A DNA stretch of 64,000 bases from Eledone cirrhosa (lineage: Eukaryota), in contig OZ024754.1 in NCBI GenBank assembly GCA_964016885.1, positions 14,012,001 to 14,076,000 on the forward strand. The letters are read 5' to 3'. The position numbers and the translations under genes are program-made. Within the stretch, counting starts at the first letter, position 1. Every line of letters starts with the position of its first letter. The notes under the pieces were generated by a model, which ran no database searches, had not been told where the DNA came from, and worked only from the letters and a program-made list of their open reading frames with translations. Positions 31,580-56,370 of the stretch are shown in pieces.

Positions 31580-31654
31580 TCAGAGAGCTTCTGAATAATA
31601 AGATTCCTTTTCAAGGAACGTTTTTACCACATTCAAGCAGTATGTATAGGATGT
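31580..31654 (-). CDS. RPTP-like terminal coding exon
   Basis: ctctcttttcag| TSYTYCLNVVKTFLEKESYYSEAL-TGA; equivalent to the QYxFCY...YL...Y tail of RPTPs. Confidence 0.88.
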   Translation of the reverse strand, partial: TSYTYCLNVVKTFLEKESYYSEAL

Positions 31655-31735
31655 CTGAAAAGAGAGAGGCAAATATATATAGCAGATGATTGTTAGTGTA
31701 CATGAAAGCAATATTATATATATATATGTCTTGAT

Positions 31736-31779
<44 letters not shown>

Positions 31780-31843
31780 AATGAAGTAATTCCGTTGGAA
31801 AGGTCCAAGAAAAAAGACTGCTCTATGTAGGTCACAGAGCTTA

Positions 31844-32053
31844 ATAGTTATCTAATAAACAACATAAGATAATTATTTCATTTACCAGTGGTTTCTTTAA
31901 AGCAAACAAATCTGCTTTCAGTCATCAGAATTAAAAAATCCTGGTATTTAATAAAAACACCAGGATTTTTTCATTCTGATGACTGAAAGCAGATTTGTTT
32001 GCTTTCAAGAAACCACTGGTAAATGAAATAATTATCTTATGTTGTTTATTAGA

Positions 32054-32060
<7 letters not shown>
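31844..32060. repeat. Fold-back element, about 100-bp arms
   Basis: Near-perfect inverted repeat abutting (TA)n. Confidence 0.93.
31968..32028 (+). ncRNA. Type I hammerhead motif in the right arm of a fold-back element; mirror copy at about 31875-31935 (-)
   Basis: UUCAUU-CUGAUGA-cUGAAAGCAGA(uuug)UUUGCUUUCAa-GAAA-CC(acu)GG-UA-AAUGAA. Confidence 0.8.
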
Positions 32061-32102
<42 letters not shown>

Positions 32103-32324
32103 TATGTTAAGGTATCAATACATATTAAATATGTAATGATCATGTTTCTCAACAAAAAAGCTCAATGGACCTTAATTCAGAACATCAATTATACAAGTTC
32201 AAAATATATATAGAGACAAAAATGTATATATCTCTTGAGAAACATAACATTTTGTACATATATATAGAGCAAATAATATGTGGGAAAATATTCACACTTT
32301 AAGATGGCAATGATCATTGCCCCT

Positions 32325-32902
32325 TTAACTCTTTAGCATTTAAACCAGCCAAATCTGTCCAGAATTCTATCACCTCTTCCAGTTCAAACCGGCTGTAACC
32401 GGCTGTTCATAATTATGTTAAGGTATTGTTCTCAAAATAAATAATACCAAAATCTTGTAGATTTGATATTATGTGAGATAATTATGTGAAATAAAGTGTT
32501 TACCATGAAAATACAATAGTAAATATAGAGTAATCATCATCATCATCATCACCGTTTTACGTCAATGTTACCACGCTAACATGGGTTAGACAGGTTGTCC
32601 TGTTGTGGGCAATGCCAGGTCAGGCGACCATGTCTTGCTCATACAGGATTGATTTTGGCTTGGTTTCTACAGCTGGTACAGCTGGATGTCCTTCCTAACG
32701 CCAACCTCATTTACAGTGAGTGCTGGGTGTTTTTTTTACCATGGTGCCTACATGACCACTTTACAGAGTGGACTGGGTGCTTTTTGTTGTGACACCTACG
32801 TGACCACTTTACAGTGGGAGGGGCGTGGAGGGCATATTGTCTATATGCTTCAGCTTCGGCTTGTACCTGTGGGAACTCCAGGTCTTGATGCTAAAGGGTT
32901 AA
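32325..32902. mobile_element. piggyBac-like MITE-1 carrying an RTE 3'UTR-type insertion
   Basis: TTAA-CTCTTTAGCAT ... ATGCTAAAGGG-TTAA. Confidence 0.72.
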
Positions 32903-33055
32903 GGTGACAATAATTATTGCCACCTTAAAGTATGGATATTTTCCTACATATATATGTGTGCATGTGGGTGTGGACATCATTTTATCCTGACACCATCTCT
33001 ATAACAAAAGAAGTTAAATAAATAATATCAGATTTTAAAAAAAATAATCATTTAC

Positions 33056-33194
33056 CTTGTCAGGTACAATTTTCGGTTGAGATTTCTTCATTTGTCTCAA
33101 AAATCTGACGAAATTGACAGAAGATTGTTCAGCCTTTACCATACAAATTATAGAATAGAGGCCAATGAACAAACCACTTTTGGTACAACCATCT
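33056..33194 (-). CDS. RPTP-like D2 exon (signature 3' part)
   Basis: ttatag| RDGCTKSGLFIGLYSIICMVKAEQSSVNFVRFLRQMKKSQPKIVPDK |gtaaat. Confidence 0.9.
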
Positions 33195-33644
33195 CTATAA
33201 ATAGAACAATATACTGGTTGAATATTGCGTTACTGTAAGCAGTGAATATATATATATATGTGTGTATGTGTGTGCGTGTGTAGATATATATAAAATAACA
33301 AATTAAAGTTTAAGCAAAGAATCGCTGCTTTCACCCTTAACAAGATCTTCTGATAATATATATATTATCCTTATCAAGCCCTCTTCGGATTTTAGTCTTC
33401 ACATTTATTATTATTACTATATATATATATATATTGCACTCAGTGCTCCTGGGGGAGCCCCTACATGGACACACTGGAAGAGGAAGACCAAGGTTAACGT
33501 ATGTTGATGCCCTAAGGACAGACACTGGTCTGTTGGAGATGCAGGACATGGCAGCGATAATGAGGGACAGAGACCGCTGGAGAGAACTCGTCCATGTATC
33601 TCGGGAATTTTACCCGCCCTAGATATATATATTATTTATTATTG

Positions 33645-33829
33645 TGGATTGGCAGTATTGGTAGAGGGTCGGACGCCATGCTTTCCAGCATAGTTACGTC
33701 CCTTTACGATCTGAGTTCAAATCCCGCCGAGGTTGACTTTGCCTTTCATCCTTACGGGGTCGATAAAATAAAGTACCAGTAATGCACTGGGTAATTTGCT
33801 GGCCTTGTGCCTAAAGTAGAAACAATTAT

Positions 33830-33832
<3 letters not shown>
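33645..33832 (+). mobile_element. SINE-B, about 190 bp; representative of copies at about 6075, 6250, 11355, 19936, 20722, 21285, 28975, 30490, 37186, 37388, 55008, 57407
   Basis: GGCAGTATCGGTAGAG...GAGTTCAAATCC (B box)...GCCTTTCATCCTTACGGGGTCGATAAAATAAAGTACCAG...GGCCTTGTGCC..AGTAGAAAC(AAT)n. Confidence 0.85.
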
Positions 33833-33873
<41 letters not shown>

Positions 33874-33937
33874 TTATATATATATAAACAAGAAGTGTAA
33901 GTCAACAGGATAAAATTAGTTTCATTTATTCATATTC

Positions 33938-33996
33938 GCTCCTATATATATTTCAGTGATAGCCATTATTCAACAGCTATGACCTCATCAGGCAGT
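33938..33996 (-). ncRNA. Hammerhead motif with eroded stem I
   Basis: ACUGC-CUGAUGA-GGUCAUAGCUGUU(gaau)AAUGGCUAUCACU-GAAA-UAUAUAUA-GGAGC. Confidence 0.62.
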
Positions 33997-34195
33997 AAGA
34001 ACTTGACCAAAAAAAACAGGAAAACATAATGTTGTAATAGATTTTACCTTGTTAGTCCATTGATATGCTCAGATCCAGAGTATATACACACATATATACC
34101 TATGCGTATATACGTGTGCCTGTGTGCGTGTGTGTGCATGTGTGTGTGTGTATATATTCAATATAAGATGTACTAATGATGCTCAACCAACTTAC

Positions 34196-34344
34196 CTACA
34201 ATGTACAGCTATTGCCATATCTCTGCTGTTCTGTTGTGAGACTGCTTCTATAAAACAAAGCATGTCCTTGCAAGGGGGTAACTCGTGTTTGTCAGGCCAG
34301 AATGTTGCATCAAAGTGGTTCACAATGGTGTAATAACTTGACTC
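34196..34344 (-). CDS. RPTP-like D2 exon (WPD loop, VHC)
   Basis: ttgtag| ESSYYTIVNHFDATFWPDKHELPPCKDMLCFIEAVSQQNSRDMAIAVHC |gtaag. Confidence 0.92.
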
Positions 34345-34401
34345 CTACAAACAACATAGTGTATATATTATATATATCATATCACTGAAAGATATCACAC
34401 A

Positions 34402-34740
34402 TCATCATCATCATCATCATTTCATTTTACGTCCGTTTTTTTCCCTGCTTGCAAGGGTAGGACGGGAACTGCTTCTGGCTTGATATCTACAGCTGGATGC
34501 CCTTCCTAACAACAACCTCATTTACAGTGAGTGCTGGGTGCTTTTTTGCTGTGGCACCTGCACGACCACTTTGCAGTGGAATGATAGGGACCCAAGTCCC
34601 TATCATCTCATTTCTACAACTGAGTAAACTGGAGCAATGTGAAATAAAGTGTCTTGCTCAAGGAAACAACACATCACCCGGTCTGAGAATTGAACTCACA
34701 ACCTTTCGATTGCAAGGCCAATGCTCTAACCATGTGCCTC
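34402..34740 (-). mobile_element. SINE-A
   Basis: Near full-length copy. Confidence 0.88.
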
Positions 34741-34741
34741 A

Positions 34742-35418
34742 GTGATATGATATATATAATATACACAGTGTATATATTATATATATCATATCACTGAGAG
34801 ATATCACACAGTGTATATATTATATATATCATATCTCTGAGAGATATCACAGTGTATATATTATATATATCATATCACTGAGAGATTATCACACAGTGTA
34901 TATATTATATATATCATATCACTGAGAGATATCACACAGTGTATATATTATATATATCATATCACTGAGAGATATCACATAGTGTATATATTATATATAT
35001 CATATCACTGAGAGATCTCACACAGTGTATATATTATATATATCACATCACTGAGAGATAGCACACAGTGTATATATTATATATATCATATCACTGAGAG
35101 ATATCACATAGTGTATATATTATATATATCATATCACTGAGGGATTATCACACAGTGTATATATTATATATATCATATCACTGAGAGATATCAGACAGTG
35201 TATATATTATATATATTATATATATGATAGCACTGAGAGATATCACATAGTGTATATATTATATATATCATATCACTGAGAGATATCTCGGTGTATATAT
35301 TATATATATCATATCACTGAGAGATATCGCATAGTGTATATATTATATATATCATATCACTGAGAGATATCACATAGTGTATATATTATATATATCACAT
35401 CACTGAGAGATATCACAT
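34742..35418. repeat. 41-44 bp minisatellite
   Basis: CACTGAGAGATATCACACAGTGTATATATTATATATATCATAT units; one unit also at 34357-34400. Confidence 0.93.
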
Positions 35419-36041
35419 GTGCTGGTTGTGGAGGTGGTGGTGGTGGTGGTGGTGGTAATGGTGGTGGTGGTGGTGGTGGTGGTGGATGTGCTGATGGGGG
35501 AGGTGATGGTGGTGGAGGTGATGGTGGGGGAGGTGATGGTAGTGGGATGTGCTGGTGGTAGTGGTGATGGTGGTGGGGTATACTGGTGGTGGGGGTGATG
35601 GTGGTGGGGTGTACTGGTGGTGGAGGTGATGGTGGTGGGGTATTATACTGGCGGTGGATGTGATGATGGTGGGGTATTATACTGGCAGTGGATGTGATGT
35701 TGGTGGGGTGTACTGGTGGTGGAGGTGATGGTGGTGGGGTGGAGGTGCCGGCGGGGCAGGTGCTGGTGTGGGTGGTGGAGGTGCTGGTGTGGAAGGTGAG
35801 AGTAGGGGAGATGCTGGTGGTGGAGGTGCTGGCCGGGGCAGGTGCTTGCGGGGGAAGGTGATGGTGGGGGAGATGAAGAGGATGGGGACAAGGGCAAGGA
35901 AGAAAAAGAGCAGGCGAATGAGGTGGAGGAAGAAGAAGAGAATGAGGAAGGAGGAGGTGGAGGAGGAGGTGAAGGTGGAGGAACGGAGCAGAATCTACAA
36001 TTTAAAATGTGCAACAATAAAGTTGTTGTAGAAGTGCTTAC

Positions 36042-36173
36042 CTCTTTTTTAAAAGATATTCTCAAGACACTGCGTTGGAATAAATCATTCTCTATGAAAT
36101 TAATAAGCTCTAAGTTAAAGGGACCAAAATCAAGAGAACAACCAATTTTCTTTGGCAAATAACTGAGAATTTC
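36042..36173 (-). CDS. RPTP-like D2 exon
   Basis: atgcag| EILSYLPKKIGCSLDFGPFNLELINFIENDLFQRSVLRISFKKE |gtaagc. Confidence 0.88.
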
Positions 36174-36217
36174 CTGCATAGAAAAGCAAAAATATTATAA
36201 GAGTAGGGTGTTGAATT

Positions 36218-36700
36218 GATGGTCTGGGGTAACTACAGGGGTATTAAGTTGATGGACTCGGACATGATAATTACGAAAAGGGTTATAGCATATTGTATGA
36301 TAATTACGAAAAGGGTTATAGCATATTGTATGATAATTACCAAAAGGGTTATAGCATATTTTATGATAATTACCAAAAGGGTTATAGCATATTTTATGAT
36401 AATTACCAAAAGGGTTAAAAACGGGGTAATAGCATAGTTTATGATAATTACCAAAAGGGTTATAACATATTTAATTAGAGTCAGAATCAAGCTAGATGAG
36501 ATGTAATACAGCTATATGCCCTCTTCTTTGTGAGAGAACTGCAGAAGAAATACTTGGCAAAGAGTAAGCCTCTGTACCTGGCTTTTGTGGATTTAGAGAA
36601 GGCATTTGACAGTGGTCCCTGTTCTGTAATCTTGTGAGTACCAAGAGAGGTAGGCATAAATGAATGGCTTGCAAGGACCTTGCAAGCTAGGTACAGATAC
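36218..36700 (+). mobile_element. Decayed RTE reverse-transcriptase fragment containing a 36-bp tandem expansion (36263-36478)
   Basis: GNYRGIKLMD...LQKKYLAKSKPLYLAFVDLEKAFD, homologous to the ORF at 42345-44417. Confidence 0.8.
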
Positions 36701-37654
36701 AATTATATCAACAGCTGCTCATAAAATTAATGTGCAAGTGGCTGAGCATTTCATAGACATCTAGTTCTCAGGAAGATTCAGTATCACACAGAATATGACC
36801 ACAGAATACGACCCTTCGATTCATGGGTACAACTCATTTTTGGACTGGAGAAACATAGAATAAAGTGTCTTGCTCAAGGACATAATGTGCCACTTGGAAT
36901 AGAACTCATAACCTTACAATTGTAGGCTAAATGCCCTAACCACAAAGTAACATGTTTTTATCAGAGGAGAGACTGCTTAAACACATGCTTATGGCTATAG
37001 GTATTACTAATAACACTTTGTAAATGGTTAGAATTTATAAATAGAGGTTGATTATTACATTTCTTAGAGTTTGAATGAACACTTCATGTTTTACAATCAC
37101 ATTCATTTGACCCCTTATAGAATAGAAACAAAATAACAATAGATTTGAAATAGAAATAGAAGCTTCACCATAATAGTATGACTTAATAATTGTTTCTAGT
37201 TTTGGCACAAGGCCAGCAATTACTTCAGTGTATTACTGGTACTTTATTTTATCGACCCTGTAAGGATGAAAGGCAAAGATAACCGCGGTGGGATTTGAAC
37301 TCAGAATGGCAAAGGCCGTAACTCTATGCGTCAAAGCATGACATCTGACCCTCTACCGATACTGCCAATCCACCGCCTTTATCCCTTAATAATTGTTTCT
37401 ACGTTAGGCACAAGGCCAGCAATTACCCAGTGCATTACTGGTACTTTATTTTATCGACCCCGTAAGGATGAAAGGCAAAGTTAACCTTGGCAGGATTTGA
37501 ACTCAGAATGGCAAGGGCCGTAACTATATACGTCAAAGCATGGCGTCCGACCCTCTACCAATACTGCCAATATAGTCTAATAATGGGGCATATGAAACTA
37601 GGGAACAGAACGAGATGGATATCAGCACACATTTCCTTAAAGGTTTTAACTTAC

Positions 37655-37777
37655 ATTGTCTCTGTCTCTAAATGTTACTATCGTGAAACAGCTGTGTTTA
37701 TTAATAATATTCAAAAATTCTAAAAAAGAATGTTGATCTGGAGACATAGCTAAGATGAACTTGTCCTCTTCATAGCC
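37655..37777 (-). CDS. RPTP-like D2 exon
   Basis: tttcag| GYEEDKFILAMSPDQHSFLEFLNIINKHSCFTIVTFRDRDN |gtaagt. Confidence 0.88.
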
Positions 37778-37874
37778 CTGAAAATACAACAACAATTGTC
37801 TAAAATATCATGTAGTAACATAATTTTAAAAGAAAATATAACTTATTTGTCTAAAGATCACTGGCAAGTTATAG

Positions 37875-39232
37875 TAGTATATTACTAAGTTAGTATAGTT
37901 TACTAACAACAACTATATCACTGAGTTAGTATAGCTTACTAACAACAACTGTATTACTGAGTTAGTTAGTAAGCTTACTAAGAACAACTATATCACTGAG
38001 TTAGTTAGTATAGTTTACTAACAACAACTATATCACTGAGTTAGTTAGTATAGTTTACTAACAACAACTATATTACTAAGTTAGTTAGTATAGTTTACTA
38101 ACAACAACTGTATTACTGAGTTAGTTAGTATAGTTTACTAACAACAACTATATCACTGAGTTAGTTAGTATAGTTTACTAACAACAACTATATTACTAAG
38201 TTAGTTAGTATAGTTTACTAACAACAACTATATCACTGAGTTAGTATAGCTTACTAACAACAACTATATTATATTACTAAGTTAGTTAGTATAGCTTACT
38301 AACAACAACTGTATTACTGAGTTAGTTAGTATAGTTTACTAACATCAACTATATCACTGAGTTAGTATAGCTTACTAACAACAACTATATTATATTACTA
38401 AGTTAGTTAGTATAGCTTACTAACAACAACTGTATTACTGAGTTAGTTAGTATAGCTACTAACAACAACTATATTACTGAGTTAGTTAGTATAGCTACTA
38501 ACAACAACTATATTACTGAGTTAGTTAGTATAGCTACTAACAACAACTATATTACTGAGTTAGTATAGCTTACTAACAACAACTATATTACTGAGTTAAT
38601 ATAGCTACTAACAACAACTATATTACTGAGTTAGTTAGTATAGCTACAAACAACAACTATATCACTGAGTTAGTATAGCTTACTAACAACAACTATATTA
38701 CTGAGTTAGTATAACTACTAACAACAACTATATTACTAAGTTAGTATAGCTACTAACAACAACTACATTACTGAGTTAGTATAGCTACTAAAAACACCTA
38801 TATTACTGAGTTAGTTAGTATAGCTACTAACAACACCTATATTACTGAGTTAGTTAGTATAGCTACTAACAACAACTATATCACTAAGTTAGTTAATATA
38901 GCTTACTAACAACAACTATATTACTGAGTTAGTTAGTATAGCTACTAACAACAACTATATCACTGAGTTAGTTAGTATAGCTTACTAACAACATCTATAT
39001 CACTTAGTTAGTATAGCTTACTAACGACAACTATATTACTGAGTTAGTATAGCTTACTAACAACAACTATATCACTGAGTTAGTTAGTATAGCTTACTAA
39101 CAACAACTATATTACTGAGTTAGTTAGTATAGCTTACTAACAACAACTATATTACTGAGTTAGTATAGCTTACTAACAACAACTATATTACTAAGTTAGT
39201 TACTATAGCTCACTAACAACAACTATATCACA
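37875..39232. repeat. 35-40 bp minisatellite; same family at 50703-51156
   Basis: AACAACAACTATATTACTGAGTTAGTTAGTATAGCTTACT units. Confidence 0.95.
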
Positions 39233-39239
39233 TATATTA

Positions 39240-39443
39240 TATATACTCAAATATAAGCTGAGGAATGTGTGACCAAAAGATCGATGGTAGAGGGGGGTTG
39301 GTTTATATTGGGGGTCAATAATTTGATGGTTTTCACCATCAAATTCTATGTAAATAAGGTTTGGATTATTTCCCATTTCTCAGACATAAAATAGTGGGGT
39401 CAGCTTATATTTATATCAGCTTTTATTTGAGTATATACAGTAA
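39240..39443. mobile_element. Tc1/mariner-type MITE; second copy at 49703-49886
   Basis: Imperfect TIRs TATACTCAAATATAAGCTGA / TCAGCTT..TATTTGAGTATATAC. Confidence 0.65.
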
Positions 39444-39524: not shown

Positions 39525-39571
39525 CTCAATCAAGGAAATTTGGTAATTCTTTGTGGACAAATTGCATTTAC
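39525..39571 (-). CDS. RPTP-like D2 small exon
   Basis: acaaag| (S)KCNLSTKNYQISLIE |gtaagt; phase 1 to 0, position of DYINASxID. Confidence 0.75.
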
Positions 39572-41059: not shown

Positions 41060-44000
41060 TGCATGTATGTATGTGTGTGAGTATGTTGATGTATTGGTGT
41101 GTGTGTGAATATATTAGTGCGTGTATGTGTATGAATATGCATGTGTATATGTATGAGTATGTTGGCATATTGGTGTGTGTGTGTATGAATATGCATGTGT
41201 ATATGTATGAGTATGTTGGCATATTGGTGTGTGTGTGTGTGTGTGTGTGTATGAATATGCATGTGTATATGTATCAGTAAGTTGGCATATTGGTGTGTGT
41301 GTGTGTGTGTATGAATATGCATGTGTATGTGTATGAGTATGTTGATGTATTGGTGTGTGTGTGTGTGTTTGAATATGCATGTGTATGAGTGTATGAGTAT
41401 GTTGATGTATTGGTGTGTGTGTGTGTGAATATATTAGTGCGTGTATGTGTATGAATATGCATGTGTATATGTATGAGTATGTTGGCATATTGGTGTGTGC
41501 GTGTGTGTATGAATATGCATGTGTATATGTATGAGTATGTTGGCATATTGGTGTGTGTGTGTATGAATATGCATGTGTATGTGTATGAGTATGTTGGCAT
41601 ATTGGTGTGTGTGTGTATGAATATGCATGTGTATATGTATCAGTAAGTTGGCGTATTGGTGTGTGTGTGTGTGTGTATGAATATGCATGTGTATGTGTAT
41701 GAGTATGTTGATGTATTGGTGTGTGTGTGTGTGTGTCTGTGTATGAATATGCATGTGTATGTGTATGAGTATGTTGGCATATTGGTGTGTGTGTGTATGA
41801 ATATGCATGTGTATGTGTATGAGTATGTTGATGTATTGGTGTGTGTGTGTGTGTTTGAATATGCATGTGTATGAGTGTATGAGTATGTTGATGTATTGGT
41901 GTGTGTGTGTCTGAATATATTAGTGCGTGTATGTGTATGAATATGCATGTGTATATGTATGAGTATGTTGGCATATTGGTGTGTGTGTGTATGAATATGC
42001 ATGTGTATATGTATGAGTATGTTGGCATATTGGTGTATGTGTGTCATCATCATCATCATCACCGTTTTACGTCCGTTCTTCCACGCTAGCATGGGTTAGA
42101 TGGGTTGTCCTGTTGTGGGCAGTGTCTGGTCGGCTGACCATGCCTTGCTCATACAGGAACTGATCTGGCTTGATTTCTACAGCTGGATGCCCTTCCTAAC
42201 ACCAACCTCATTTACAGTGAGTGCTGGGTGCTTTTTCGTGGCGCCTACACGTCCACTTTACAGTGTGGACTGGGTGCTTTTTTGCCGTGGCACCTCCACG
42301 GCCACCTTGCGGTGGAGGGGGGGGGGGCATATTGTTTATATGCTTCAGCATGTACCCATGGGAGGTCGGGTACCCTGTATTACTGCGTGACGCCAGAAGT
42401 CACGGTCGTGTGTCATTGACTTTGAGAGGTGTAGTTGGGTAAGGTCGGCTTTTATCACCTCATCCCAAGTCATCTTGGGTCTCCCCACTCCGCGGTTTCC
42501 ATCAACTTCTAGTGCTCTGCACCTTTTTATGCAGCTGTCATCCTTCATACGCATCACATGTCCATACCAGCGTAACCGCCTCTCCTGCACGCAGCATTTG
42601 ATTCCTCTTATGCTCAGTCTCTCTCTCAATTCCTTTATGCTTTGTCGTTCACGTATATTACTGTTACACATCCATCGGAGCATGCAGGCTTCGTTTCTCT
42701 CTAATCTACGTAAGTCTTCCACCTTCAGCGCCCAGGTCTCACTACCATGCAACATCGCTGTTCGGATACACGCATCATACAGTCTGCCTTTCATTCTGAG
42801 GGAGAAGCCTTTTGCAGCTAGCAGTGGTAGTAGTTCCCTAAACTTCTTCCATCCCGTTCTTACCCTAGTTATTGTACTTTCTGAGCACCCACTTCCGTTG
42901 CTAATTCGGTCACCTAGGTAGCAGAAGCTGTCTACTGTTTCTACAGGGCCCTCCCAGAGATTGGTGGTACTTGTTTCCTGTGGCTGTTTGCTTGCTGTTT
43001 CAGCACAGCTGCTGCATGTGAATCCTACATTCTTAATTAAGCTTCCTGAGATCCCGCTACATCTCTTGTGTACCCATTGTTTGCATTTGGGGCAGAGAAT
43101 GGAGTTTCTACCTACACCTTTCCTACATACTGAGCAAGGCCATTTCCCTGAGGGGATCTGGGTTCTGTTTTCTCGTCTACTTACAAGGACCTTAGTCTTT
43201 GTCATGTTGACTTTGAGGCCCTTTCTCTCTAGTCCCTGCTTCCAGGTTTGGAATTTATTCTCTAGTTCTACCATAGATTCAGCTATGAGTGCGAGGTCAT
43301 CAGCATACAGGAGTTCCCATGGGCATCCGGTCTTAAACTCCTCCGTTATTGCCTGCAGGACTATGATGAACAGGAGAGGGCTAAGAACAGAGCCCTGGTG
43401 GACCCCAACCTGTACGCTAAATTCCTCGCTATACTCATTGCCAATCCTAACTTTGCTGACTGCTCCCCTATACATGGCTTGTACCGCTTTCACAAGCCAT
43501 TCATCTACTCCTAGTTTTCTAAGAGCCCACCAGATTACAGCACGTGGAACTCTGTCAAAGGCTTTCTCAAGGTCGACAAATGCCAAGTAGAGTGGCTTAC
43601 TTTTAGCTAGGTACTTTTCCTGTAATTGCCTCACAAGGAAGAGGGCATCAGTGGTGCCTTTCCCTGGTACAAACCCAAATTGCATCTCGTCTATATTCAC
43701 CCGGTCCCTAATCAGCTGTGCTATAACTCTTTCTGTTACTTTCATGACCTGGTCCATCAACTTTATACCTCTATAGTTTCCTCTATCTAGTGCATCGCCT
43801 TTACCTTTGTAGCAGTTGACAATGATGCTACTGCACCAATCTTTTGGTATGGCCCCCTCTAGTATTACCTGGTTAACGATACGTGTGGTTATAGTGTGAC
43901 CTACAGACCCAGATGCCTTCAGCATCTCGGCAGCTATACCCGATGGACCGGTTGCCTTCCCTATCTTCATATCTCTGATTGCCTTACTTACTACGCTGCC

Positions 44001-45735
44001 GCTGACTTGTACTGCTGGTCCCTCTATAGGGTCTACGTGGGGTAGGGTCTCTTCTTCCCATGCATTCTCCTCATTTAGTAATCTATCATAATGACTCTTC
44101 CATGCATCTTTCTTCTCAGCACTTGTGAGGGCAAGCTCACCTTTATCATTCCGGATACACTTCTCTCCAATGACATCACAACTATCTCTGACACACTGCC
44201 TCGCAATCTTGAATACCTCCTGTTTCTGGTCCTCACGTTGTAAAACATGCTTGAATTTTCTATCCTCTGCTTCCCTCCTAGCTAAGTATACTTGTCGCCT
44301 AGCTTCCCTCTTGGTCTCTATGTAATGTACCCTGCTCCCCCCGTTCTTCCATTCTTTCCATGCCTGTCTCTTGGCCTTGACTGCTTCATCTACCTTATTG
44401 TTCCACCACCAAGTCACTCTCCTCCTGCTTGAGGTCTTACTCCAGCCACAAACCTCATCCGTCGCCTCTAGTAAGTTATTTTTTAGGAACTCCCAGTTCT
44501 CTTCTAAATGTCTCTATCTGTTCTTCTTTACTGTCGTAGGCGTTGAGTAAAATATCTTTAAATCTGTTACTGGTTGAGGGGACTTTCAGCTTCCAGATCT
44601 TTCTTCTCCAGGTTGGCCTCTGTTTCAGGGCTCGTCTAGTTCTGACCGTGAGGTCGCTGACAACTAAGCTATGTTGGGATGTACATTCCTCACTAGGGAA
44701 GGCTTTTGTGTTTACGACCGTCCATCTGTCACGTCCTCTGATGAGGATAAAATCTAACTGACTAGAGTGTATGTGTGTGTATGTGTGTGTATGAATATGC
44801 ATGTGTATGTGTATGAGTATGTTGGCATATTGGTGTATGTGTGTGTATGAATATGCATGTGTATATGTATCAGTATGTTGGCATATTGGTGTATGTGTGT
44901 ATGAATATGCATGTGTATGTGTATGAGTATGTTGATGTATTGGTGTGTGTGTGTGTGTTTGAATATGCATGTGTATGAGTGTATGAGTATGTTGATGCAT
45001 TGGTGTGTGTGAATATATTAGTGCGTGTATGTGTATGAATATGCATGTGTATATGTATGAGTATGTTGGCATATTGGTGTGTGTGTGTGTATGAATATGC
45101 ATGTGTATATGTATGAGTATGTTGGCATATTGGTGTGTGTGTGTATGAATATGCATGTGTATATGTATGAGTATGTTGGCATATTGGTGTGTGTGTGTGT
45201 GTATGAATATGCATGTGTATGTGTATCAGTAAGTTGGCATATTGGTGTGTGTGTGTGTGTATGAATATGCATGTGTATATGTATGAGTATGTTGGCATAT
45301 TGGTGTGTGTGTGTGTGTATGAATATGCATGTGTATGTGTATGAGTATGTTGATGTATTGGTGTGTGTGTGTGTGAATATATTAGTGCGTGTATGTGTAT
45401 GAATATGCATGTGTATATGTATGAGTATGTTGGCATATTGGTGTGTGTGTGTATGAATATGCATGTGTATATGTATCAGTAAATTGGCATATTGGTGTGT
45501 GTGTGTATGAATATGCATGTGTATGTGTATGAGTATGTTGATGTATTGGTGTGTGTGTGTGTGTGTCTGTGTATGAATATGCATGTATATATGTATCAGT
45601 AAGTTGGCATATTGGTGTGTGTGTGTGTGTATGAATATGCATGTGTATGTGTATGAGTATGTTGATGTATTGGTGTGTGTGTGTGTGTCTGTGTATGAAT
45701 ATGCATGTGTATATGTATCAGTAAGTTGGCATATT

Positions 45736-45909: not shown

Positions 45910-45976
45910 TAGTATATAGCTCTTCAAGTAGATCACAGATGTAATTATTGTCTTGCCCAGTTTGTCCAATGATGTT
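45910..45976 (-). CDS. RPTP-like D2 N-terminal small exon
   Basis: ttgcag| NIIGQTGQDNNYICDLLEELYT |gtaagt; phase 0 to 1 bridges the neighbouring exons. Confidence 0.75.
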
Positions 45977-47822: not shown

Positions 47823-47834
<12 letters not shown>

Positions 47835-47853
<19 letters not shown>

Positions 47854-48785: not shown

Positions 48786-48865
48786 TAGTAGATAGATAGA
48801 TAGATATGACAACATGATATACAGAGCTAGAGAAAGAGAGAGTATAGTGAGGGAGAATTGCTTAC

Positions 48866-49015
48866 CATGAACTGATTGTCTGCAATTGACAGTTCAGTTG
48901 TTCTGTCCTTTACAGAAATTCTGTCAATTTCTTCTTTCAAATGATGCATTTTAATGTCACAACCAGCAGTTAGCATACTCTCAGTTAAGACATCATAAAC
49001 AAATTCAAGCTGTAC
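48866..49015 (-). CDS. RPTP-like D1 C-terminal helix and D1-D2 linker exon
   Basis: cactag| VQLEFVYDVLTESMLTAGCDIKMHHLKEEIDRISVKDRTTELSIADNQFM |gtaag; matches the QYxFxxDALxE..G.T.I linker pattern. Confidence 0.9.
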
Positions 49016-50291
49016 CTAGTGACAGGAAAAATTACATTTTCAATAAAATAGTTAAGCTTAAACCAAAGAGAAATCTAATTTTATTTTCTGTTTTAGATAT
49101 AATATTAATTTTTAGTAGAAGCTAACAGGGTTAACAAATTTGGGGACGGACAAAGTTGATTACATCAACCCCAGTACTTGACTGGTACTTTATATTATTG
49201 ACCCTGGAAAGATGAAAGGCAAAGTTGACCTCAGTGGGATTTGAACTCAGAACGTAAAAAGCCAAAACAAATTCTGCAATGGCATTTTATCCATTGCTGT
49301 ACCAATTCTGCCATGCCACCACCCCTTCACTCTGCTAATTCTTCCAATCCACTACCCCTTCTACAGCTTGATACCCTTCCTAATGCCAACCACATTACAA
49401 TGTGGACTGGCTGCTTTTTGTTGTGTCACCAAGATGACTAACTGGCTGCTATTGGTGTTGTTACACCATATCAGCATACAAGGTGGATTTCTTCATATTT
49501 ATATTAAAAGTTTCCATCATTATTTTTTAAATAAATTTTTTGTGAAATGATGTTTCAAATAGCAGCTTATTAATTTAAATGTTAGTTATTTTATTAAACT
49601 CCTCCCAATTCTTTTTATTATTTTCAAATTTTTTTTAAACATATAGGCAAAGTACTTAATTAGAAATCAATAACAAAATGGTTAAACGAGGGAAGGATTA
49701 ATTACTGTATACTCAAATATTAGCTGAGGAATATGTGACAAAAAAATAGATCGAGGTCAATATTTTGACAATTTTCACCAACTTTAAATTCTATGTAAAT
49801 AAGGTTTCGATTTTTGCCCATTTCTCAAACATAGATTAGTGAGGTTGGCTTGTATTTGTATTGGCTTATATTTGAGTATATACCGTCTAAACCCATGTTA
49901 GCGTGGAAGATAGACGTTAAACGATGATGATGGTGATGATGATGATGGTGGTGGTGGTGGTATATGGATCTAGGTAGTTAACTGCTTTTATTTTATTGAT
50001 TCTAGAAAAATTAAAATCAAAGTCTTGAACTTAGATCTGCTATTTGAAATAGTAATTTCAGTAATTTGCACTCATAAACAACTATTTATATCATTTTACT
50101 TCTCATTTGGTGGTTAATGTTAAGGAGGGAAGCCAGCTGTAAAGATCCATCCAAAATATAGTTCCATTTGAGCAAGGTACGATGTGGCCAGCTGGCCAGT
50201 CTTGTTTCATAATGTGGAAAACCTGTCTAATCCTTGCAAACATGGAAAAATACTCGTTCAATAGTGATGATGATGATGATGATGATCATGG

Positions 50292-50360
<69 letters not shown>

Positions 50361-50455
50361 CGATGATGGTGACGATGGTGATGAAGATGATGATGATGAT
50401 GATGATATTAAAACTGAATATCTACAGAGAATATAATATAGAATCTCATACAAAC

Positions 50456-50591
50456 CCTCTGAGTGAATATCAAACTTCTTTCATTATACAGTTGTCTAAT
50501 GCTGTACGATGCATTAAGAGGTATATTTTGCTCAAACTTCTTCAGAAGAATATCAAGGCAGATATACGTTCCTGTAGACCCTGCACCAGCT
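50456..50591 (-). CDS. RPTP-like D1 exon (signature 3' part, Q-loop)
   Basis: tttcag| KAGAGSTGTYICLDILLKKFEQNIPLNASYSIRQLYNERSLIFTQR |gtttgt; weak donor, but phase fits the next exon. Confidence 0.88.
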
Positions 50592-51480
50592 CTGAAATGT
50601 AAGGGTTTTTAATTTAGACACAAAGCCAGAAATTTGCGTGGAAGGGAAAGTCAATTGATTCAACCCCAGTACTTGACTGCTATTTCATTTTATCAATTTC
50701 AAGCTGAGCTAGTTAGTATAGCTTACTAACAACAACTATATTACTAAGTTAGTTAGTATAGCTTACTAACAACAACTATATTACTGAGCTAGTTAGTATA
50801 GCTTACTAACAACAACTATATTACTGAGTTAGTTAATATAGCTTACTAACAACAACTATATTATATTACTAAGTTAGTTAGTATAGCTTACTAACAACAA
50901 CTATATTACTGAGCTAGTTAGTATAGCTTACTAACAACAACTATATTGCTGAGTTAATTAGTATAGCTTACTAACAACAACTATATTACTGAGTTAGTAT
51001 AGCTTACTAACAACAACTATATCACTGAGTTAGTTAGTATAGCTTACTAACAACAACTATATTACTGAGTTAGTATAGCTTACTAACAACAACTATATCA
51101 CTGAGTTAGTTAGTATAGCTTACTAACAACAACTATATTACTGAGTTAGTATAGCTAGTTCTATTTCAATTCTAAACTCACTACATTCCAAATATACTTC
51201 CTATATTATCTCTTTTCAATCAACAACTCTGTAACCTCCAATATCTGTCTACATTTATATTTAGTGGTTGAGTCCTTGTTAAAAAGCCATGAAACCAACT
51301 GTCACTTAATAATAAGAAAAATAAATACATACTCATAGAGAGATTACTTACATCTGATGTTTGGGATATAACCTATTTTTCACTATCGATAATTTCACAT
51401 CGTAATAAATTCAAGAAAAGTCAGTTTTTTAATTAAGAAATAAAAACAAACCAACAAAGGCATGATGCTGAATCACTTAC

Positions 51481-51638
51481 TTGCTTTGAACAACAATTGG
51501 GTATTTCAAATCACTGCAAGAGTTGACTTTTTGTCGAAAGTTTATAATACATTCTGGGTTTGATGGAATCATACCTTCAGGCCAACTGGTAAAGTTGAAG
51601 TGAGTTACTGAGCGCATGACAAATGGCTTAGAATCAGG
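51481..51638 (-). CDS. RPTP-like D1 exon (WPD-loop region and start of signature)
   Basis: ttgtag| PDSKPFVMRSVTHFNFTSWPEGMIPSNPECIINFRQKVNSCSDLKYPIVVQS |gtaagt. Confidence 0.92.
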
Positions 51639-51832
51639 CTACAATAATATATATAAATATAACTTACACTATATAGTATAAAGTATAATAGCTTGTAAGT
51701 AGTTATATATATATATATATATATATAAGTAGTTATATATATATATATATATATAATAAAGGAAATGTGGTAAGGAACCAGATGGACCATAATGCACCAA
51801 AGTACTCAATACTTAGGGTAGTAGAGTAGGTA

Positions 51833-52042
51833 ATAGGAATGAGTAGGACCCCGACGGCTGAGCTCAAGCCGTTTTGACGGCTAATTCTGGACTAAAATTA
51901 CTGAGTTAGTATAGCTAGTTCTATTTCAATTAGTATAGCTAGTTCTATTTCACTTCTAAACTCACTACATTCGAGATATACTTTTTAGTCCAGAATTAGC
52001 CGTCGAAACGGCTTGAGCTCAGCCGTCGGGGTCCTACTCGTT

Positions 52043-52047
<5 letters not shown>
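51833..52047. repeat. Fold-back element, 64-bp arms
   Basis: ATAGGAATGAGTAGGACCCCGACGG... / ...CCGTCGGGGTCCTACTCGTTCCTAT then (TA)n. Confidence 0.92.
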
Positions 52048-52091
<44 letters not shown>

Positions 52092-52163
52092 TGAAGTTTC
52101 CGTTGAAAATTGAAAAAGTCATAGGAGTGAAGAGTGCTCTATGTAAGTACCAGAGCTAAATTT

Positions 52164-52340
52164 AATGTATAATAAACAATACAATATAATTACCTCATTA
52201 CCAGAGGTTTCCCGAATAAGACGAATACGAAAAACGCCCTCATTCGTTCATCGGACAAGGCAATTGCCTTGTCCGATGAACGAATGAGGACGTTTTTCGT
52301 ATTCAATGAGGTAATTATATTGTATTGTTTATTATACATT
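52164..52340. repeat. Fold-back element with a perfect palindromic centre
   Basis: Centre GGACAAGGCAATTGCCTTGTCC; the right arm has an internal deletion. Confidence 0.92.
52193..52260 (-). ncRNA. Hammerhead-like motif with variant core CCGAUGA
   Basis: CCUUGU-CCGAUGA-aCGAAUGAGGGCG...CGUCUUAUUCGg-GAAA-CC(ucu)GG-UA-AUGAGG. Confidence 0.6.
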
Positions 52341-52869
52341 CTATATATATAAATATATATATATAAGTAGTTATATATATATATATATGTAGTTATATAT
52401 ATATATATGGTGCCACGGCAAAAAAGCACCCAGCACTCACTATAAATGAGGTTGGTGTTAGGAAGGGCATCCAGCTGTAGAAATCAAGCCAGAATCAGTT
52501 CCCGTCCCACCCTTGCAAGCAGGGAAAAAGCGGACGTAAAATGAAATGATGATATATATAAGTAGTTATATACATATATATTGTCCCACCCTTGCAAGCA
52601 AGGAAAAGCGGATGTAAAATGATGATGATGATTGTATAATGAAAGACATTTGATATTCACTAAGAGGGTTTGTATGAGATTCTACATTATATTCTCTGTA
52701 GATATTCAGTTTTAATATCATCATCATATATATATATGTAAGTAGTTATATATATATATATATATATATATAGATTTTGAGTTTATGTTGGTTGTATACC
52801 AACACCTCAGTATGCAGGCTGGAGCACTCGACGAAGTGCGCAGGTTGGTTTGGTTACTCCGGAGTAGTG

Positions 52870-53643
52870 TAAAATAAAGTTAAATAAAAGTCAAATGATT
52901 AAAATTTAGCTTCGTTTATTACTGCTATATATATTTCAGTGACAGCCATCTTTGGCTGTGACCTCTTCAGGCAGTTTGAATTAGTATGGTATAGACAAGT
53001 ACATATGTTGTTTAGGTGTATGATATTGTCAATACTCTGATATGCCCAGTTCCTTGTTGGGTTGTTAATTCACTGGGGAACTGGAGTCATACTTCTAAAT
53101 TGTTAGCAGCAGCAAGATATAAGCTGACCACTACAACAACAACAGTACCAAAATAATGGTGGAGGTCAAATGTACTGAACAATAGCAGGCATAAACACTA
53201 CAGGGAGCCTCACCCCAGAAAGAATTCTATAGACTTCTGACTGAGGAATGCTCTCAGAACTGAACAATGGGAAATTTGACACATTTTTTGATATTTTGTT
53301 CCTTCAACACCTTGTCCCTTCTACCATTTTATCAATTTTTAAGCTAACTCCAACAATGACAACACTAATAACTGACCAATGAGAGGAGAAGGAGACCTGT
53401 GACACTAAAATTCGTTTGTTTGAATTCATATGACTCCAGTTCCCCAGTGAATTAACAACCCAACAAGGAACTGGGCATATCAGAGTATTGACAATATCAT
53501 ACACCTAAACAACATATGTACTTGTCTATACCATACTAATTCAAACTGCCTGAAGAGGTCACAGCCAAAGATGGCTGTCACTGAAATATATATAGCAGTA
53601 ATAAACGAAGCTAAATTTTAATCATTTGACTTTTATTTAACTT

Positions 53644-53650
<7 letters not shown>
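52870..53650. mobile_element. Fold-back Penelope-like remnant: 222-bp inverted arms, about 340-bp spacer
   Basis: 52870-53091 is the reverse complement of 53429-53650; each arm holds a hammerhead; (TA)n at the right end. Confidence 0.85.
53545..53599 (+). ncRNA. Type I hammerhead motif; exact mirror copy at 52921-52975 (-)
   Basis: ACUGC-CUGAAGA-GGUCACAGCCA(aaga)UGGCUGUCACU-GAAA-UAUAUA-UA-GCAGU, then AATAAA. Confidence 0.8.
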
Positions 53651-53686
<36 letters not shown>

Positions 53687-53739
53687 GAAATGACAGGAGG
53701 TCAAATATGTTTAATTTCCTTAATTTTTTATTTCTGTAA

Positions 53740-53797
53740 ACACAATGCACATTTCAGTGACCAGGTTGCATAAGAACCCGGTGACCTCATCAGGTGT
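53740..53797 (-). ncRNA. Type I hammerhead motif
   Basis: ACAC-CUGAUGA-GGUCACCGGGUU(cuuaugc)AACCUGGUCACU-GAAA-UG(ug)CA-UU-GUGU, then AATAAA. Confidence 0.78.
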
Positions 53798-53935
53798 AAA
53801 TTGCGTAATAGATGTATACCAACAGAATGATGGTAAACTTTAAGGAAACAAGCAAAGAAAAACAAAGAGGAAAAAATGTGCTATGCTTTTGACTCAGGGA
53901 CGGACGTAGTAGCATGCTGCTACATTGCTCGCCTG

Positions 53936-54017
<82 letters not shown>

Positions 54018-54221
54018 CATATATTCATATATTCCTTATGGTCATGAATCTTGCTGATTCTCAGCCAATGTGGTCAGCATGCAAGAGTTTTAGTGAGAAA
54101 AAACAATTGAAGCTAATAACAAATGTTTTGATAATCCAATACAGAGAAAGCAGGCTTTGCTAAACATCAATTTTTTAACATCAATTTTTGTACATGTTAT
54201 AAAGATCATTTATATATATAA

Positions 54222-54562
54222 CATGGCTTAGTGGTTAGAGCATTGGCCTTGCAATCGAAAGGTTATGAGTTCAATTCTCAGACCAAGTGATGTGTTGTTT
54301 CCTTGAGCAAGACACTTTATTTCACATTGCTCCAGTTTACTCAGCTGTAGAAATGAGATAATAGGGACTGGGGTCCCTATCATTCCACTGCAAAGTGGTC
54401 GTGTAGGCGCCACGGCAAAAAAGCACCCAGCACTCACTGTAAAAGAGGTTGGTGTTAGGAAGGGCATCCAGCTGTAGAAATCAAGCCAGAATCAGTTCCC
54501 GTCCCACCCTTGCAAGCAGGGAAAAAGTGGCCGTAAAATGAAATGATGAAATGATGATGAAT
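54222..54562 (+). mobile_element. SINE-A (5'-truncated copy also at 52409-52550)
   Basis: Near full-length copy. Confidence 0.88.
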
Positions 54563-54825
54563 GATACCAGGTGTGCTGTATAAACCTTTTTAAAAAATGA
54601 TTTTCTCTCTATATATATATCATCATCATCATCATCATCATTTTACATCTGCTTTTCCCTGCTTACAAAGGTGGGACAGGAACTGATTATATATATATAT
54701 ATGGAGAGGAAGATGAGTATGAGAATGTGATGGTAAGTTTATGTGATTATGTGTGAGAGAGGGGCAAAAGAGAGGGTGAGGAGGAATTGGTTGGGGGAAT
54801 GTAGAAGAAGAAAGTGAAGTTTTAC

Positions 54826-54948
54826 CTGACATAATGCATATTTTGAGACTGTGTAGTTCTTATGGACGTTGTAGAGGACTCCTTGCACACGGATCGATCC
54901 AAAATTTACAGAACTATTTACTTGAGGTAAATGTTGCACATAACCAGG
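54826..54948 (-). CDS. RPTP-like D1 exon
   Basis: cttcag| PGYVQHLPQVNSSVNFGSIRVQGVLYNVHKNYTVSKYALCQ |gtaaaa; phase 0-0, degenerate KCxxYWP region. Confidence 0.88.
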
Positions 54949-55737
54949 CTGAAGAAATTACAAATAATATTGGATCAGTGCTGGACTTACCTATAAGCTA
55001 AATATATAATGGTTTCTAGTATAGGCACAAGGCCAGCAATTTTGGGGGAGGGGAGAGTCGATTAAATCGACACCAGTATGTTACCGGTACTTCATTTTAT
55101 TGACCCCGTAAGGATGAAAGGCAAAGTCAACCTCGGCGGGATTTGAACTCAGATCGTAAAGGGACGTAACTATGCTGGAAAGCATGGCATCCGACCCTCT
55201 ACCGATACTGCCAAAATAATATTGGATCAGTGCTGGACTTACCTATAAGCTAAGTTATAGCTTAGGGCTATACACCTTCAGGGGCCTCATTTAAAAAAAT
55301 ATATTTTTATTTTTCTATCGACCCTGGAAGGATGAAAGACAAAGTTGACATCAGCGGGATTTAAACTTAGAATATAAAATGGCAGTACAATGGCATTTTA
55401 TCTGATACTTGACCAATTCTGCCAATCCAGCACCCTCAAATATTAATTTTTAATTTAGACACCAGGCCAGCAAATTCAGTGAAGGGCAAAGTTGATTAAA
55501 TCAACTCCAATACATAACTGGTACTTTATTTTATCAACCTCAGAAAGCTGAAAGGCAATGTTGACCTCAATGGGATTTGAACTCAGAACATAAGGAGTCA
55601 TAAGAAATGCTCTAGCTGTGGTGCCAACCAAACCCCTACTCTGCACACCCCTCCACATGGGATTAATAATCTCTAATTTAGGCAAAAGGCCTTCAAATTT
55701 GAGGAGAGGGGAAACATTTATTTTATTTTATTTACCC

Positions 55738-55809
55738 ACAACGACAACAACAACGACAACAACAACAACAACAACAACAACCACAACAACAACAACAACA
55801 ACAACAACA

Positions 55810-55840
<31 letters not shown>

Positions 55841-56238
55841 CAACAACAACAACAGCAACAACAACAACAAAAAAAAACAACCATAACAACCACAACAACC
55901 ACAACAACCACAACCACCACAACAACAACAACCACAACAACAACAACAACAACAACAACAGCAGAAACAACAACAACAACAACAACAGCAACAACAACAA
56001 AAAACAACAACCACAACCACCACAACAACATCATCAACAACAACAACAACTACAACAACCACCACAACAACATCATCAACAACAACAACAACAACAACAA
56101 CCACAACCACCACAACAACATCATCAACAACAACAGTAACAACTACAACCACAACATCAACAACAACAACAACAACAACCACAACAACAACAACCACCAC
56201 AACAACAGCAACCACAACAACCACAACATCAACAACAT
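55738..56238. repeat. (CAA)n/(CAG)n microsatellite
   Basis: Direct reading. Confidence 0.95.
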
Positions 56239-56281
56239 TTTTAACAACAGTTCACAGATAAAAGTTCCAATATATTTTTAC

Positions 56282-56370
56282 CTGCTTATCATTGGTGAGT
56301 AAAACGATTATGGAACAATTTTGTTGCCATATCATCCTCCAGAAATCAGTCATTGTTTTGGTCATTGGCA
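56282..56370 (-). CDS. Receptor-type PTP-like gene, D1 exon (first in window)
   Basis: ttttag| PMTKTMTDFWRMIWQQNCSIIVLLTNDKQ |gtaaaa; PTP motifs DFWxMxW and IVMLT. Confidence 0.92.

What the first reader, a model, noticed from the sequence alone, without database searches (positions are those of the whole stretch)
31580..56370. Intact RPTP gene whose membrane-proximal D1 domain lacks the catalytic cysteine, with a degenerate D2 as well
Seen: 12 phase-consistent GT-AG exons with no stops. The D1 signature reads PIVVQSKAGAGSTG against canonical VHCSAGxGRTG (His>Gln, Cys>Ser, Arg>Ser), with WPE for WPD and no intact Q-loop. D2 keeps WPD and VHC but has C-x5-K (HCRDGCTKSG) and lacks KNRY, DYINA and the Q-loop Gln. 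Established: in tandem-domain RPTPs D1 is normally the active domain and D2 the degenerate one; Cys>Ser abolishes catalysis, and the signature Arg binds phosphate. Inference: a double pseudophosphatase acting as a scaffold, decoy or dominant-negative receptor, or one where any residual activity has moved to D2.
Basis: partly seen in the sequence, partly recalled or inferred. Interest (0 to 1): 0.75.

Follow-up and report, generated by a model that had tools for sequence, protein, structure and literature searches.

The report
Octopus receptor with two dead phosphatases
An intact octopus-type cell-surface receptor gene, also kept in three Octopus species, has lost key catalytic residues in both of its phosphatase domains, yet its first, normally active pocket has stayed as unchanged as that of a sister gene with an intact active site, so it likely works as a binding scaffold rather than as an enzyme.

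Summary
The 12 exons are the 3' half of a 27-exon, 1030-aa open frame: signal peptide, EGF-like and F-type-lectin-like ectodomain, one membrane helix, D1, D2. It belongs to the molluscan MEGF/galactose-binding-domain receptor phosphatases. D1 has lost His, Cys, Arg, the WPD Asp, the pTyr-loop Tyr and the first Q-loop Gln, and the orthologues of O. sinensis, O. vulgaris and O. bimaculoides carry the same replacements, so the loss is old and not an assembly error. The former active-site loops are 42 of 47 identical to O. sinensis, against 41 of 47 for an intact paralogue pair and 20 of 34 for D2. Activity has not moved to D2: its Cx5K is shared with intact paralogues and its Cys is Asn in two species. 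Cys>Ser arose twice in the family. Best reading: a maintained double pseudophosphatase whose D1 pocket was reused for binding. Human PTPRU is the precedent but keeps its cysteine. Activity, expression and partners are untested; no RNA run was listed. Earlier scan notes cover other family members, none this dead D1.

The parts
56282..56370 (-). Exon 16 of 27 (aa 569-598), D1: ..VPMTKTMTDFWRMIW..; Gly of TQGP is Val
54826..54948 (-). Exon 17 (aa 599-639), D1: VQHLP in place of CxQYWP
51481..51638 (-). Exon 18 (aa 640-692), D1: WPE (Glu660, 51578-51576), Gln690 (51488-51486), Ser691 for the catalytic Cys (AGC, 51485-51483), start of Lys692
50456..50591 (-). Exon 19 (aa 692-737), D1: AGAGSTG with Ser697 for the P-loop Arg (50578-50576); Thr735 for the first Q-loop Gln
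48866..49015 (-). Exon 20 (aa 738-787): end of D1 (second Q-loop Gln739 kept) and D1-D2 linker
45910..45976 (-). Exon 21 (aa 788-810): shortened start of D2, no KNRY loop
   Evidence: weak match alone
39525..39571 (-). Exon 22 (aa 810-825): KNYQISLIE in place of DYINASFID
   Evidence: weak match alone
37655..37777 (-). Exon 23 (aa 826-866), D2
36042..36173 (-). Exon 24 (aa 867-910), D2
34196..34344 (-). Exon 25 (aa 911-960), D2: WPD (Asp928) and VHC (Cys959, 34200-34198)
33056..33194 (-). Exon 26 (aa 960-1006), D2: Lys965 at the Arg position (AAA, 33181-33179); no Q-loop Gln
31580..31654 (-). Exon 27 (aa 1007-1030, TGA): last helix of D2 and tail with conserved Tyr1026
56371..64000 (-). Part of the 15.7-kb intron 15, filled with LINE fragments; the 15 upstream exons (signal peptide, ectodomain, membrane helix, start of D1 with KNRF and DYINAS) lie 8-45 kb beyond the window's right end, in loci L011-L015

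Best explanation
This is an intact, single-pass lectin/EGF receptor phosphatase gene whose two phosphatase domains both lack catalytic residues, and it likely signals as a scaffold, with the dead D1 pocket reused as a binding site. Shown: the open 27-exon frame and domain order; the loss of Cys, Arg, Asp, His, Tyr and Gln in D1; the same replacements in three Octopus species; conservation of the former active-site loops at the level of an intact paralogue pair; two cytoplasmic tyrosines (474, 1026) kept in all orthologues. Inferred: after a gene duplication in octopods, D1 lost catalysis during a phase of fast change (stem branch 0.86-1.0 changes per site), then took on a binding role and was held fixed. 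Ligand binding outside would cluster the receptor, kinases would phosphorylate the kept tyrosines (no longer removed by the receptor itself), and D1 and the tail would recruit partners different from those of the active paralogues, whose tyrosines sit in YxN while these sit in YxQ and YxE. The partner is unknown.
For: Frame intact over 27 exons, 26 of 26 introns GT-AG. 617 of 1028 residues identical to O. sinensis; D1 202 of 280, D2 129 of 205, ectodomain 205 of 358. Neutral decay to that divergence left 0 of 2000 simulated frames without a stop. D1 identity 71% against 74% for the intact paralogue pair over the matching span. Of 46 D1 columns at least 90% conserved in 32 relatives, 15 are replaced here and 14 of the 15 carry the same new residue in O. 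sinensis (p 0.0025 against variable columns, 0.05 against the D1 mean). Former active-site loops 42 of 47 against 134 of 194 for the rest of D1 (Fisher p 0.005) and 20 of 34 for the same loops of D2 (p 0.003); intact pair 41 of 47. AlphaFold2 model of the O. sinensis orthologue keeps both PTP folds (10-residue blocks of D1 mostly pLDDT 89-98; TM-score 0.82 to tandem PTP sigma, 0.90 to PTPRT D1). A-to-I editing cannot restore any D1 residue. Precedent: PTPRU has two pseudophosphatase domains and binds partners (PMC7320164); PTPRA's tail Tyr789 recruits BCAR3, p130Cas, Grb2 and Src (PMC7959691).
Against: No expression data for this species and no activity or binding data. Constraint rests on one deep species split (this genome against three closely related Octopus species) and on protein identity, not dN/dS. 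The loop windows were chosen by me after seeing the alignment, and these loops are also structurally central, so part of their conservation may be for folding (the D2 contrast only partly answers this). The p value for frozen replacements is only 0.05 against the D1 mean, and a few of the 15 columns near a three-residue deletion depend on the alignment. The family as a whole erodes easily (three of the four paralogues read in this genome have damaged motifs), so loss of catalysis alone is not special here. The ectodomain lacks the fucose-binding His/Arg/Arg triad, so the ligand step is unspecified.
Confidence: 0.58

Rival explanations
1. PTPRU-like decoy or dominant negative: the dead receptor competes with catalytically intact paralogues for the same substrates or ligands, or pairs with them and damps them.
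For: Intact paralogues exist in this genome (C2:257.5 Mb, WPD and VHCSAGVGRTG) and in O. vulgaris and cuttlefish. PTPRU acts this way (PMC7320164 Discussion). The wedge region before D1 is well conserved.
Against: D1 is far from the intact paralogue (26 of 47 in the loops, 72 of 194 elsewhere), whereas PTPRU D1 is 69% identical to its active relatives. The docking tyrosines and the lectin site have diverged from those of the paralogues. It is single copy on another chromosome.
Confidence: 0.22
2. Phosphate reader: D1 still binds a phosphorylated ligand (pTyr peptide or a phosphoinositide head group) and shields or senses it, using the new P-loop Lys692 in place of the lost Arg.
For: Cys>Ser is the classical trapping change (recalled). 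Lys692 is fixed in all four species; a Lys at this place is a feature of PTEN-type lipid phosphatases (recalled). WPE sets phosphoinositide preference in PTPRQ (PMC7320164 Introduction). The pocket loops are highly conserved.
Against: The Arg that cradles phosphate, the Glu that positions it (role recalled) and the pTyr-loop Tyr are all replaced. WPE also occurs in inactive PTPRU, whose pocket excludes pTyr.
Confidence: 0.12
3. Activity has moved to D2, perhaps switched on by A-to-I editing of Lys965 (AAA) to Arg (AGA), which would give Cx5R beside an intact WPD.
For: D2 keeps Asp928 and Cys959 here, and a single A>G change gives Arg at 965. O. bimaculoides also has Cys and Lys.
Against: Cys is Asn and Lys is Glu in O. 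sinensis and O. vulgaris, WPD is WKD in all three Octopus species; Cx5K is also found in D2 of intact paralogues; D2 loops 20 of 34, below the rest of D2 at 107 of 165; no pTyr loop, no Q-loop Gln.
Confidence: 0.04
4. A decaying or purely structural relic: the gene is a young pseudogene, or only the ectodomain matters and the intracellular part drifts.
For: Overall identity to Octopus is only 60%; paralogues in the family show scattered damage; one EGF-like unit is degenerate here.
Against: 0 of 2000 neutral simulations stay stop-free, 5 of 2000 when only this lineage's share of change is simulated; D1 is the best conserved part; conservation follows family-conserved columns (81 of 92 against 59 of 104); RefSeq lists two isoforms in O. 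sinensis.
Confidence: 0.04

Closest known systems
Molluscan MEGF/galactose-binding-domain receptor-like PTPs (Biomphalaria sudanica SudRes1 cluster, PMC12297450)
   Same: EGF-like repeats, a galactose-binding/F-type-lectin-like domain, one membrane helix, tandem PTP domains; lineage-specific duplication.
   Different: The passages seen treat those receptors as enzymes with an active proximal domain; here D1 is dead, the gene is single copy, has few EGF units and lacks the fucose triad. The octopod and cuttlefish members form their own clade (100/100); Biomphalaria proteins were not in the tree.
Human PTPRU (R2B), double pseudophosphatase (PMC7320164)
   Same: Tandem D1-D2 receptor with both domains predicted or shown inactive, WPE in D1, altered pTyr loop, active paralogues.
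   Different: PTPRU keeps Cys and Arg and is redox sensitive; this D1 has lost both. Ectodomain unrelated (MAM/Ig/FN3, recalled). Independent origin.
PTPRA/PTPRE (R4) tandem domains
   Same: Best sequence match among solved structures (6uzt, E 6e-70); a tail tyrosine at the place of the PTPRE YANF motif; database name 'alpha-like'.
   Different: Active D1, short glycosylated ectodomain (recalled); not an orthologue: salmon PTPRE falls outside the cephalopod clade.
Automatic annotations XP_029642125, XP_036362485 (O. sinensis), CAI9728057 (O. vulgaris), XP_014768573.2 (O. bimaculoides)
   Same: Orthologues, about 60% identical, same D1 motif.
   Different: They are named as protein-tyrosine-phosphatases with no note of inactivity in the names seen.

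Membership tests
Tandem-domain receptor PTP (architecture) | Signal peptide, ectodomain, one membrane helix, D1 then D2 | tested here: met
   27-exon model with hydrophobic peaks at aa 2-21 and 417-435; two PF00102 stretches in the orthologue; fold match to PTP sigma D1-D2
Active classical PTP (D1) | C-x5-R P-loop | tested here: not met
   Ser691, Ser697; same in three Octopus species
Active classical PTP (D1) | WPD general acid | tested here: not met
   Glu660
Active classical PTP (D1) | KNRY pTyr loop and Q-loop Gln | tested here: not met
   KNRF; Thr735 for the first Gln, Gln739 kept
Active classical PTP (D2) | C-x5-R, pTyr loop, Q-loop | tested here: not met
   Cys959-x5-Lys965; no KNRY; no Gln
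Double pseudophosphatase RPTP (PTPRU type) | No measurable activity of either domain | not testable with these tools
   Predicted from motifs only
Double pseudophosphatase RPTP (PTPRU type) | Retained redox-sensitive D1 cysteine | tested here: not met
   Cys replaced by Ser
Double pseudophosphatase RPTP (PTPRU type) | Binds substrates of active paralogues | not testable with these tools
   Needs pull-downs
Molluscan MEGF/GBD-RPTP | EGF-like repeats plus galactose-binding domain outside, tandem PTP inside | tested here: met
   EGF-like exons; PF22633 at E 1.7e-4, below its cut-off, in the orthologue and above it in paralogues; fold match to F-type lectin 3cqo, E 8.6e-10
Molluscan MEGF/GBD-RPTP | Common descent with the Biomphalaria SudRes1 genes | not tested
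   No Biomphalaria sequence in the trees
F-type lectin domain | Cation motif h2DGx | tested here: met
   VVDGI here, VVDGN in Octopus (motif from PMC5712786); the last residue departs here
F-type lectin domain | Fucose triad HX24RXDX4(R/K) | tested here: not met
   His replaced (Leu here, Ser in Octopus), loop with the last Arg deleted; the O. vulgaris intact paralogue keeps His and both Arg
Pseudogene | Stops, frameshifts, broken splice sites, neutral divergence | tested here: not met

The most novel reading that the evidence does not exclude
Octopods have turned a lectin/EGF recognition-receptor phosphatase family into a set of paired active and dead receptors, killing D1 several times independently, and in this oldest dead member the cysteine-free, arginine-free D1 pocket has become a new ligand-binding site (fixed Lys in the P-loop, WPE), a kind of reader domain not described for receptor PTPs.
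Probability: 0.25. Interest if true: 0.72.

Novelty: new variant of a known kind. Interest (0 to 1): 0.5.

Why it matters
In tandem receptor phosphatases D1 is the working domain; the one human exception, PTPRU, keeps its cysteine, so its non-catalytic role is mixed with redox chemistry. Here nature has removed the nucleophile, the phosphate-binding Arg and the acid together and still keeps the pocket fixed, which gives a clean test of what a D1 does without catalysis. The gene sits in a mollusc receptor family linked to parasite resistance in snails, and the family holds intact, partly eroded and fully dead members side by side, a ready series for studying how pseudoenzymes arise. Public annotations call the orthologues phosphatases.

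Tried and rejected
RNA evidence: no RNA holder listed; the three runs laid behave as DNA contigs of one sample and showed no splice joints, so they say nothing on expression. A search for short or partial orthologues found none at E 1e-10 among 2651 candidates. No squid or cuttlefish orthologue with a dead D1 appeared in the word-based or the HMMER search; few cephalopod proteomes are held, so this is not absence. dN/dS could not be computed: no orthologous coding DNA was on hand. Complex prediction of the dead D1-D2 with an intact paralogue D1 was not available, so pairing is untested. My first join of the 12 exons had three boundaries off by one, corrected. The WPD column of the motif survey picked the wrong column and was ignored; only its P-loop count is used (246 of 255 first domains keep Cys and Arg; the 9 others are this gene and three orthologue records, the O. 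bimaculoides paralogue, one crinoid protein with Arg>Ser, and three records where a D2 was picked), and that set is biased to high-scoring canonical proteins. The first tree was a quick search only; one search failed on a script error. Whether this gene is sister to the eroding C2 clade (shared His>Gln) is open: AU p 0.09, and p 0.18 for grouping with the intact clade. Rejected: assembly error, rescue by RNA editing of D1, hidden canonical exon, extra PTP domain upstream. Literature: ten full-text searches listed no paper on this gene or on inactive cephalopod RPTPs; subscription journals are largely missing from that library and no supplements were read.
Full report
Setting. The window lies on contig C14 of a 3.0-Gb genome. 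Its closest proteins come from Octopus species at about 60% identity, so I take it to be an octopod outside those species; I did not try to name it.

Observation. All 12 exons were recovered on the minus strand between 56370 and 31580. Using the O. sinensis orthologue XP_029642125, found with the D1 exon as query, I located 15 more exons in the 200 kb upstream. The 27 exons span 77.3 kb, all 26 introns are GT-AG, and the frame gives 1030 residues and one terminal stop. Order: signal peptide, cysteine-rich/EGF-like units, a beta-sandwich, an EGF-like unit, an F-type-lectin-like domain, a degenerate EGF-like unit, one membrane helix (about 417-435), D1, D2. There is no third PTP domain and no canonical P-loop exon in the 264 kb read.

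D1. Against the four motifs named in PMC7320164: KNRY is KNRF, WPD is WPE, VHCSAGxGR is VQSKAGAGS, and the first Q-loop Gln is Thr while the second is kept. Of 46 D1 columns at least 90% conserved among 32 relatives, 15 are replaced. O. sinensis, O. vulgaris and O. bimaculoides carry the same residues at the catalytic places. No A>G edit can restore any of them. By established PTP chemistry the domain cannot form the phospho-cysteine intermediate; this was not measured.

D2. It keeps Asp928 and Cys959 but has Lys at the Arg position and no pTyr or Q-loop. Cx5K is also seen in D2 of paralogues with intact D1, the Cys is Asn in two Octopus species and WPD is WKD in three. D2 is therefore an ordinary degenerate D2 of this family. 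One A>G edit would turn Lys965 into Arg; there are no RNA reads to test it and the site is not conserved.

Constraint. Identity to O. sinensis: D1 202 of 280, D2 129 of 205, ectodomain 205 of 358. Random mutation of the coding sequence to that divergence left 0 of 2000 frames free of stops (mean 23.8 stops for the whole gene, 10.3 for the intracellular part; 5 of 2000 when only this lineage's share was simulated; no indels modelled). An intact paralogue pair across the same species split is 74% identical in D1 against 71% here. The four former active-site loops are 42 of 47 identical, the rest of D1 134 of 194 (p 0.005); the intact pair gives 41 of 47 and 131 of 186; the matching D2 loops give 20 of 34 (p 0.003 against D1 loops). 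The eroding paralogues give 18 of 31 to 30 of 46 against their O. bimaculoides relative. Of the 15 replaced columns 14 hold the same new residue in O. sinensis (p 0.0025 or 0.05, by background). Caveats: one deep split only, loop windows chosen by me, paralogue models pieced from tblastn hits with a slight bias to the query at exon overlaps.

Fold. AlphaFold2 on the O. sinensis orthologue (70-row alignment) gives mean pLDDT 76.3 with both PTP domains confident; Foldseek matches tandem PTP sigma (TM 0.82) and PTPRT D1 (TM 0.90, rmsd 2.4). A weaker model of the O. bimaculoides ectodomain (pLDDT 58.4) matches the tandem F-type lectin 3cqo best, over 370 columns, which hints that the first beta-sandwich is a second, degenerate lectin-type domain. 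The fucose triad defined in PMC5712786 is absent here and in Octopus but largely kept in the intact O. vulgaris paralogue; other paralogues also lack the His.

Family. The architecture is that of the MEGF/galactose-binding-domain receptor phosphatases described in Biomphalaria (PMC12297450). In trees of the intracellular part, cuttlefish and octopod members form one clade (100/100); the octopod part (93/89) holds three lineages: this gene with its orthologues (stem 1.0, tips 0.22 and 0.25-0.29), an intact lineage, and an eroding lineage. In this genome the eroding lineage has three copies on C2: LPE with VQCSVGVGES, WPD with VQCSVGAGRS, WPG with VHCSVGAGRS; a fourth gene read at C2:257.5 Mb is intact. 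The O. bimaculoides member of the eroding lineage has its own Cys>Ser. A single origin of Cys>Ser is rejected (AU p 0.0002, LG+G4; two changes). The dead gene appears single copy (a search with a stricter first look).

Mechanism. A fold kept only for stability would not be expected to hold its emptied pocket as tightly as an intact enzyme while the same loops of D2 drift, so I infer a binding role for the D1 pocket. Tyr474 and Tyr1026 are kept in all full-length orthologues; most intact relatives have YxN at one or both places, as PTPRE does at its tail, while this lineage has YxQ and YxE. PTPRA's tail tyrosine recruits adaptors (PMC7959691); that YxN selects Grb2 is recalled. The simplest model is a receptor that is clustered by an unknown ligand and recruits its own partners through D1 and phosphorylated tyrosines. 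A PTPRU-type decoy remains possible, but D1 has moved much further from its active paralogues than PTPRU has. Every step after 'dead and conserved' is inference.

Novelty. Double pseudophosphatase receptors are known from PTPRU. What differs is the outright loss of Cys and Arg in D1, its fixation across octopods, and repeated loss in a recognition-receptor family. Ten searches listed no paper on it. Papers seen: PMC7320164 abstract, Introduction and Discussion; PMC12297450, PMC5712786 and PMC7959691 as passages; all others as listings only. Earlier scan notes: none by sequence or by words; notes on other family members in this genome (8 of 17 shown).

Verdict. Real, well supported as a conserved double pseudophosphatase, a new variant of a known kind; mechanism inferred; interest 0.5.

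Noticed in passing
window 964-23309, + strand: A multi-exon gene with at least four SRCR domains, each split over two exons, converging on the phosphatase gene (seven exon pieces match PF00530).
   Followed up: partly
window 52633-52727, + strand: A 95-bp inverted copy (4 mismatches) of the end of exon 19 with its donor and following intron (50490-50396), lying in intron 17; it could pair with the original in the pre-mRNA.
   Followed up: partly
window 33179-33181: D2 Lys965 codon AAA is one A-to-I edit from Arg, which would complete Cx5R in D2.
   Followed up: partly
window 42348-44513 and 58400-64000, - strand: LINE-type retrotransposon frames in introns (RVT_1 with PHD; zf-RVT); the 3' part of one element occurs twice about 4.5 kb apart.
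   Followed up: partly
G000:C2:231.7-233.1 Mb (L031-L050, L059-L061): Three tandem paralogues with different damage to D1 motifs (LPE and Arg>Glu; His>Gln only; WPG), a series of erosion in progress.
   Followed up: yes
G000:C14:9.149-9.165 Mb (L002-L004): Three tandem intronless copies of a PTP gene like the C22 locus L001 (PTPN14/21-like, name recalled), with WSKD for WPD, LCHNGVGR for HCSAGVGR and long internal repeats.
   Followed up: no
G000:C10:12.086-12.089 Mb (L005, L006): A nearly intronless receptor-type PTP gene with VHCGTGINRCG in D1.
   Followed up: no
G000:C2:257.5 Mb and 261.7 Mb: Two very similar copies of the intact paralogue about 4 Mb apart; only the first was read.
   Followed up: partly
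G000:C17:40.22-40.24 Mb (L062-L070); C20:3.5-5.3 Mb: A gene with the same ectodomain and no PTP exon in the 75 kb read downstream; and many similar EGF-like exon hits clustered on C20, C16 and C22.
   Followed up: partly
L017-L019 (about 68-80 kb beyond the window's right end): Long intronless open frames of 273 aa (+, BTB-like) and 786 aa (-, CPSF2-like); names recalled from motifs, not tested.
   Followed up: no
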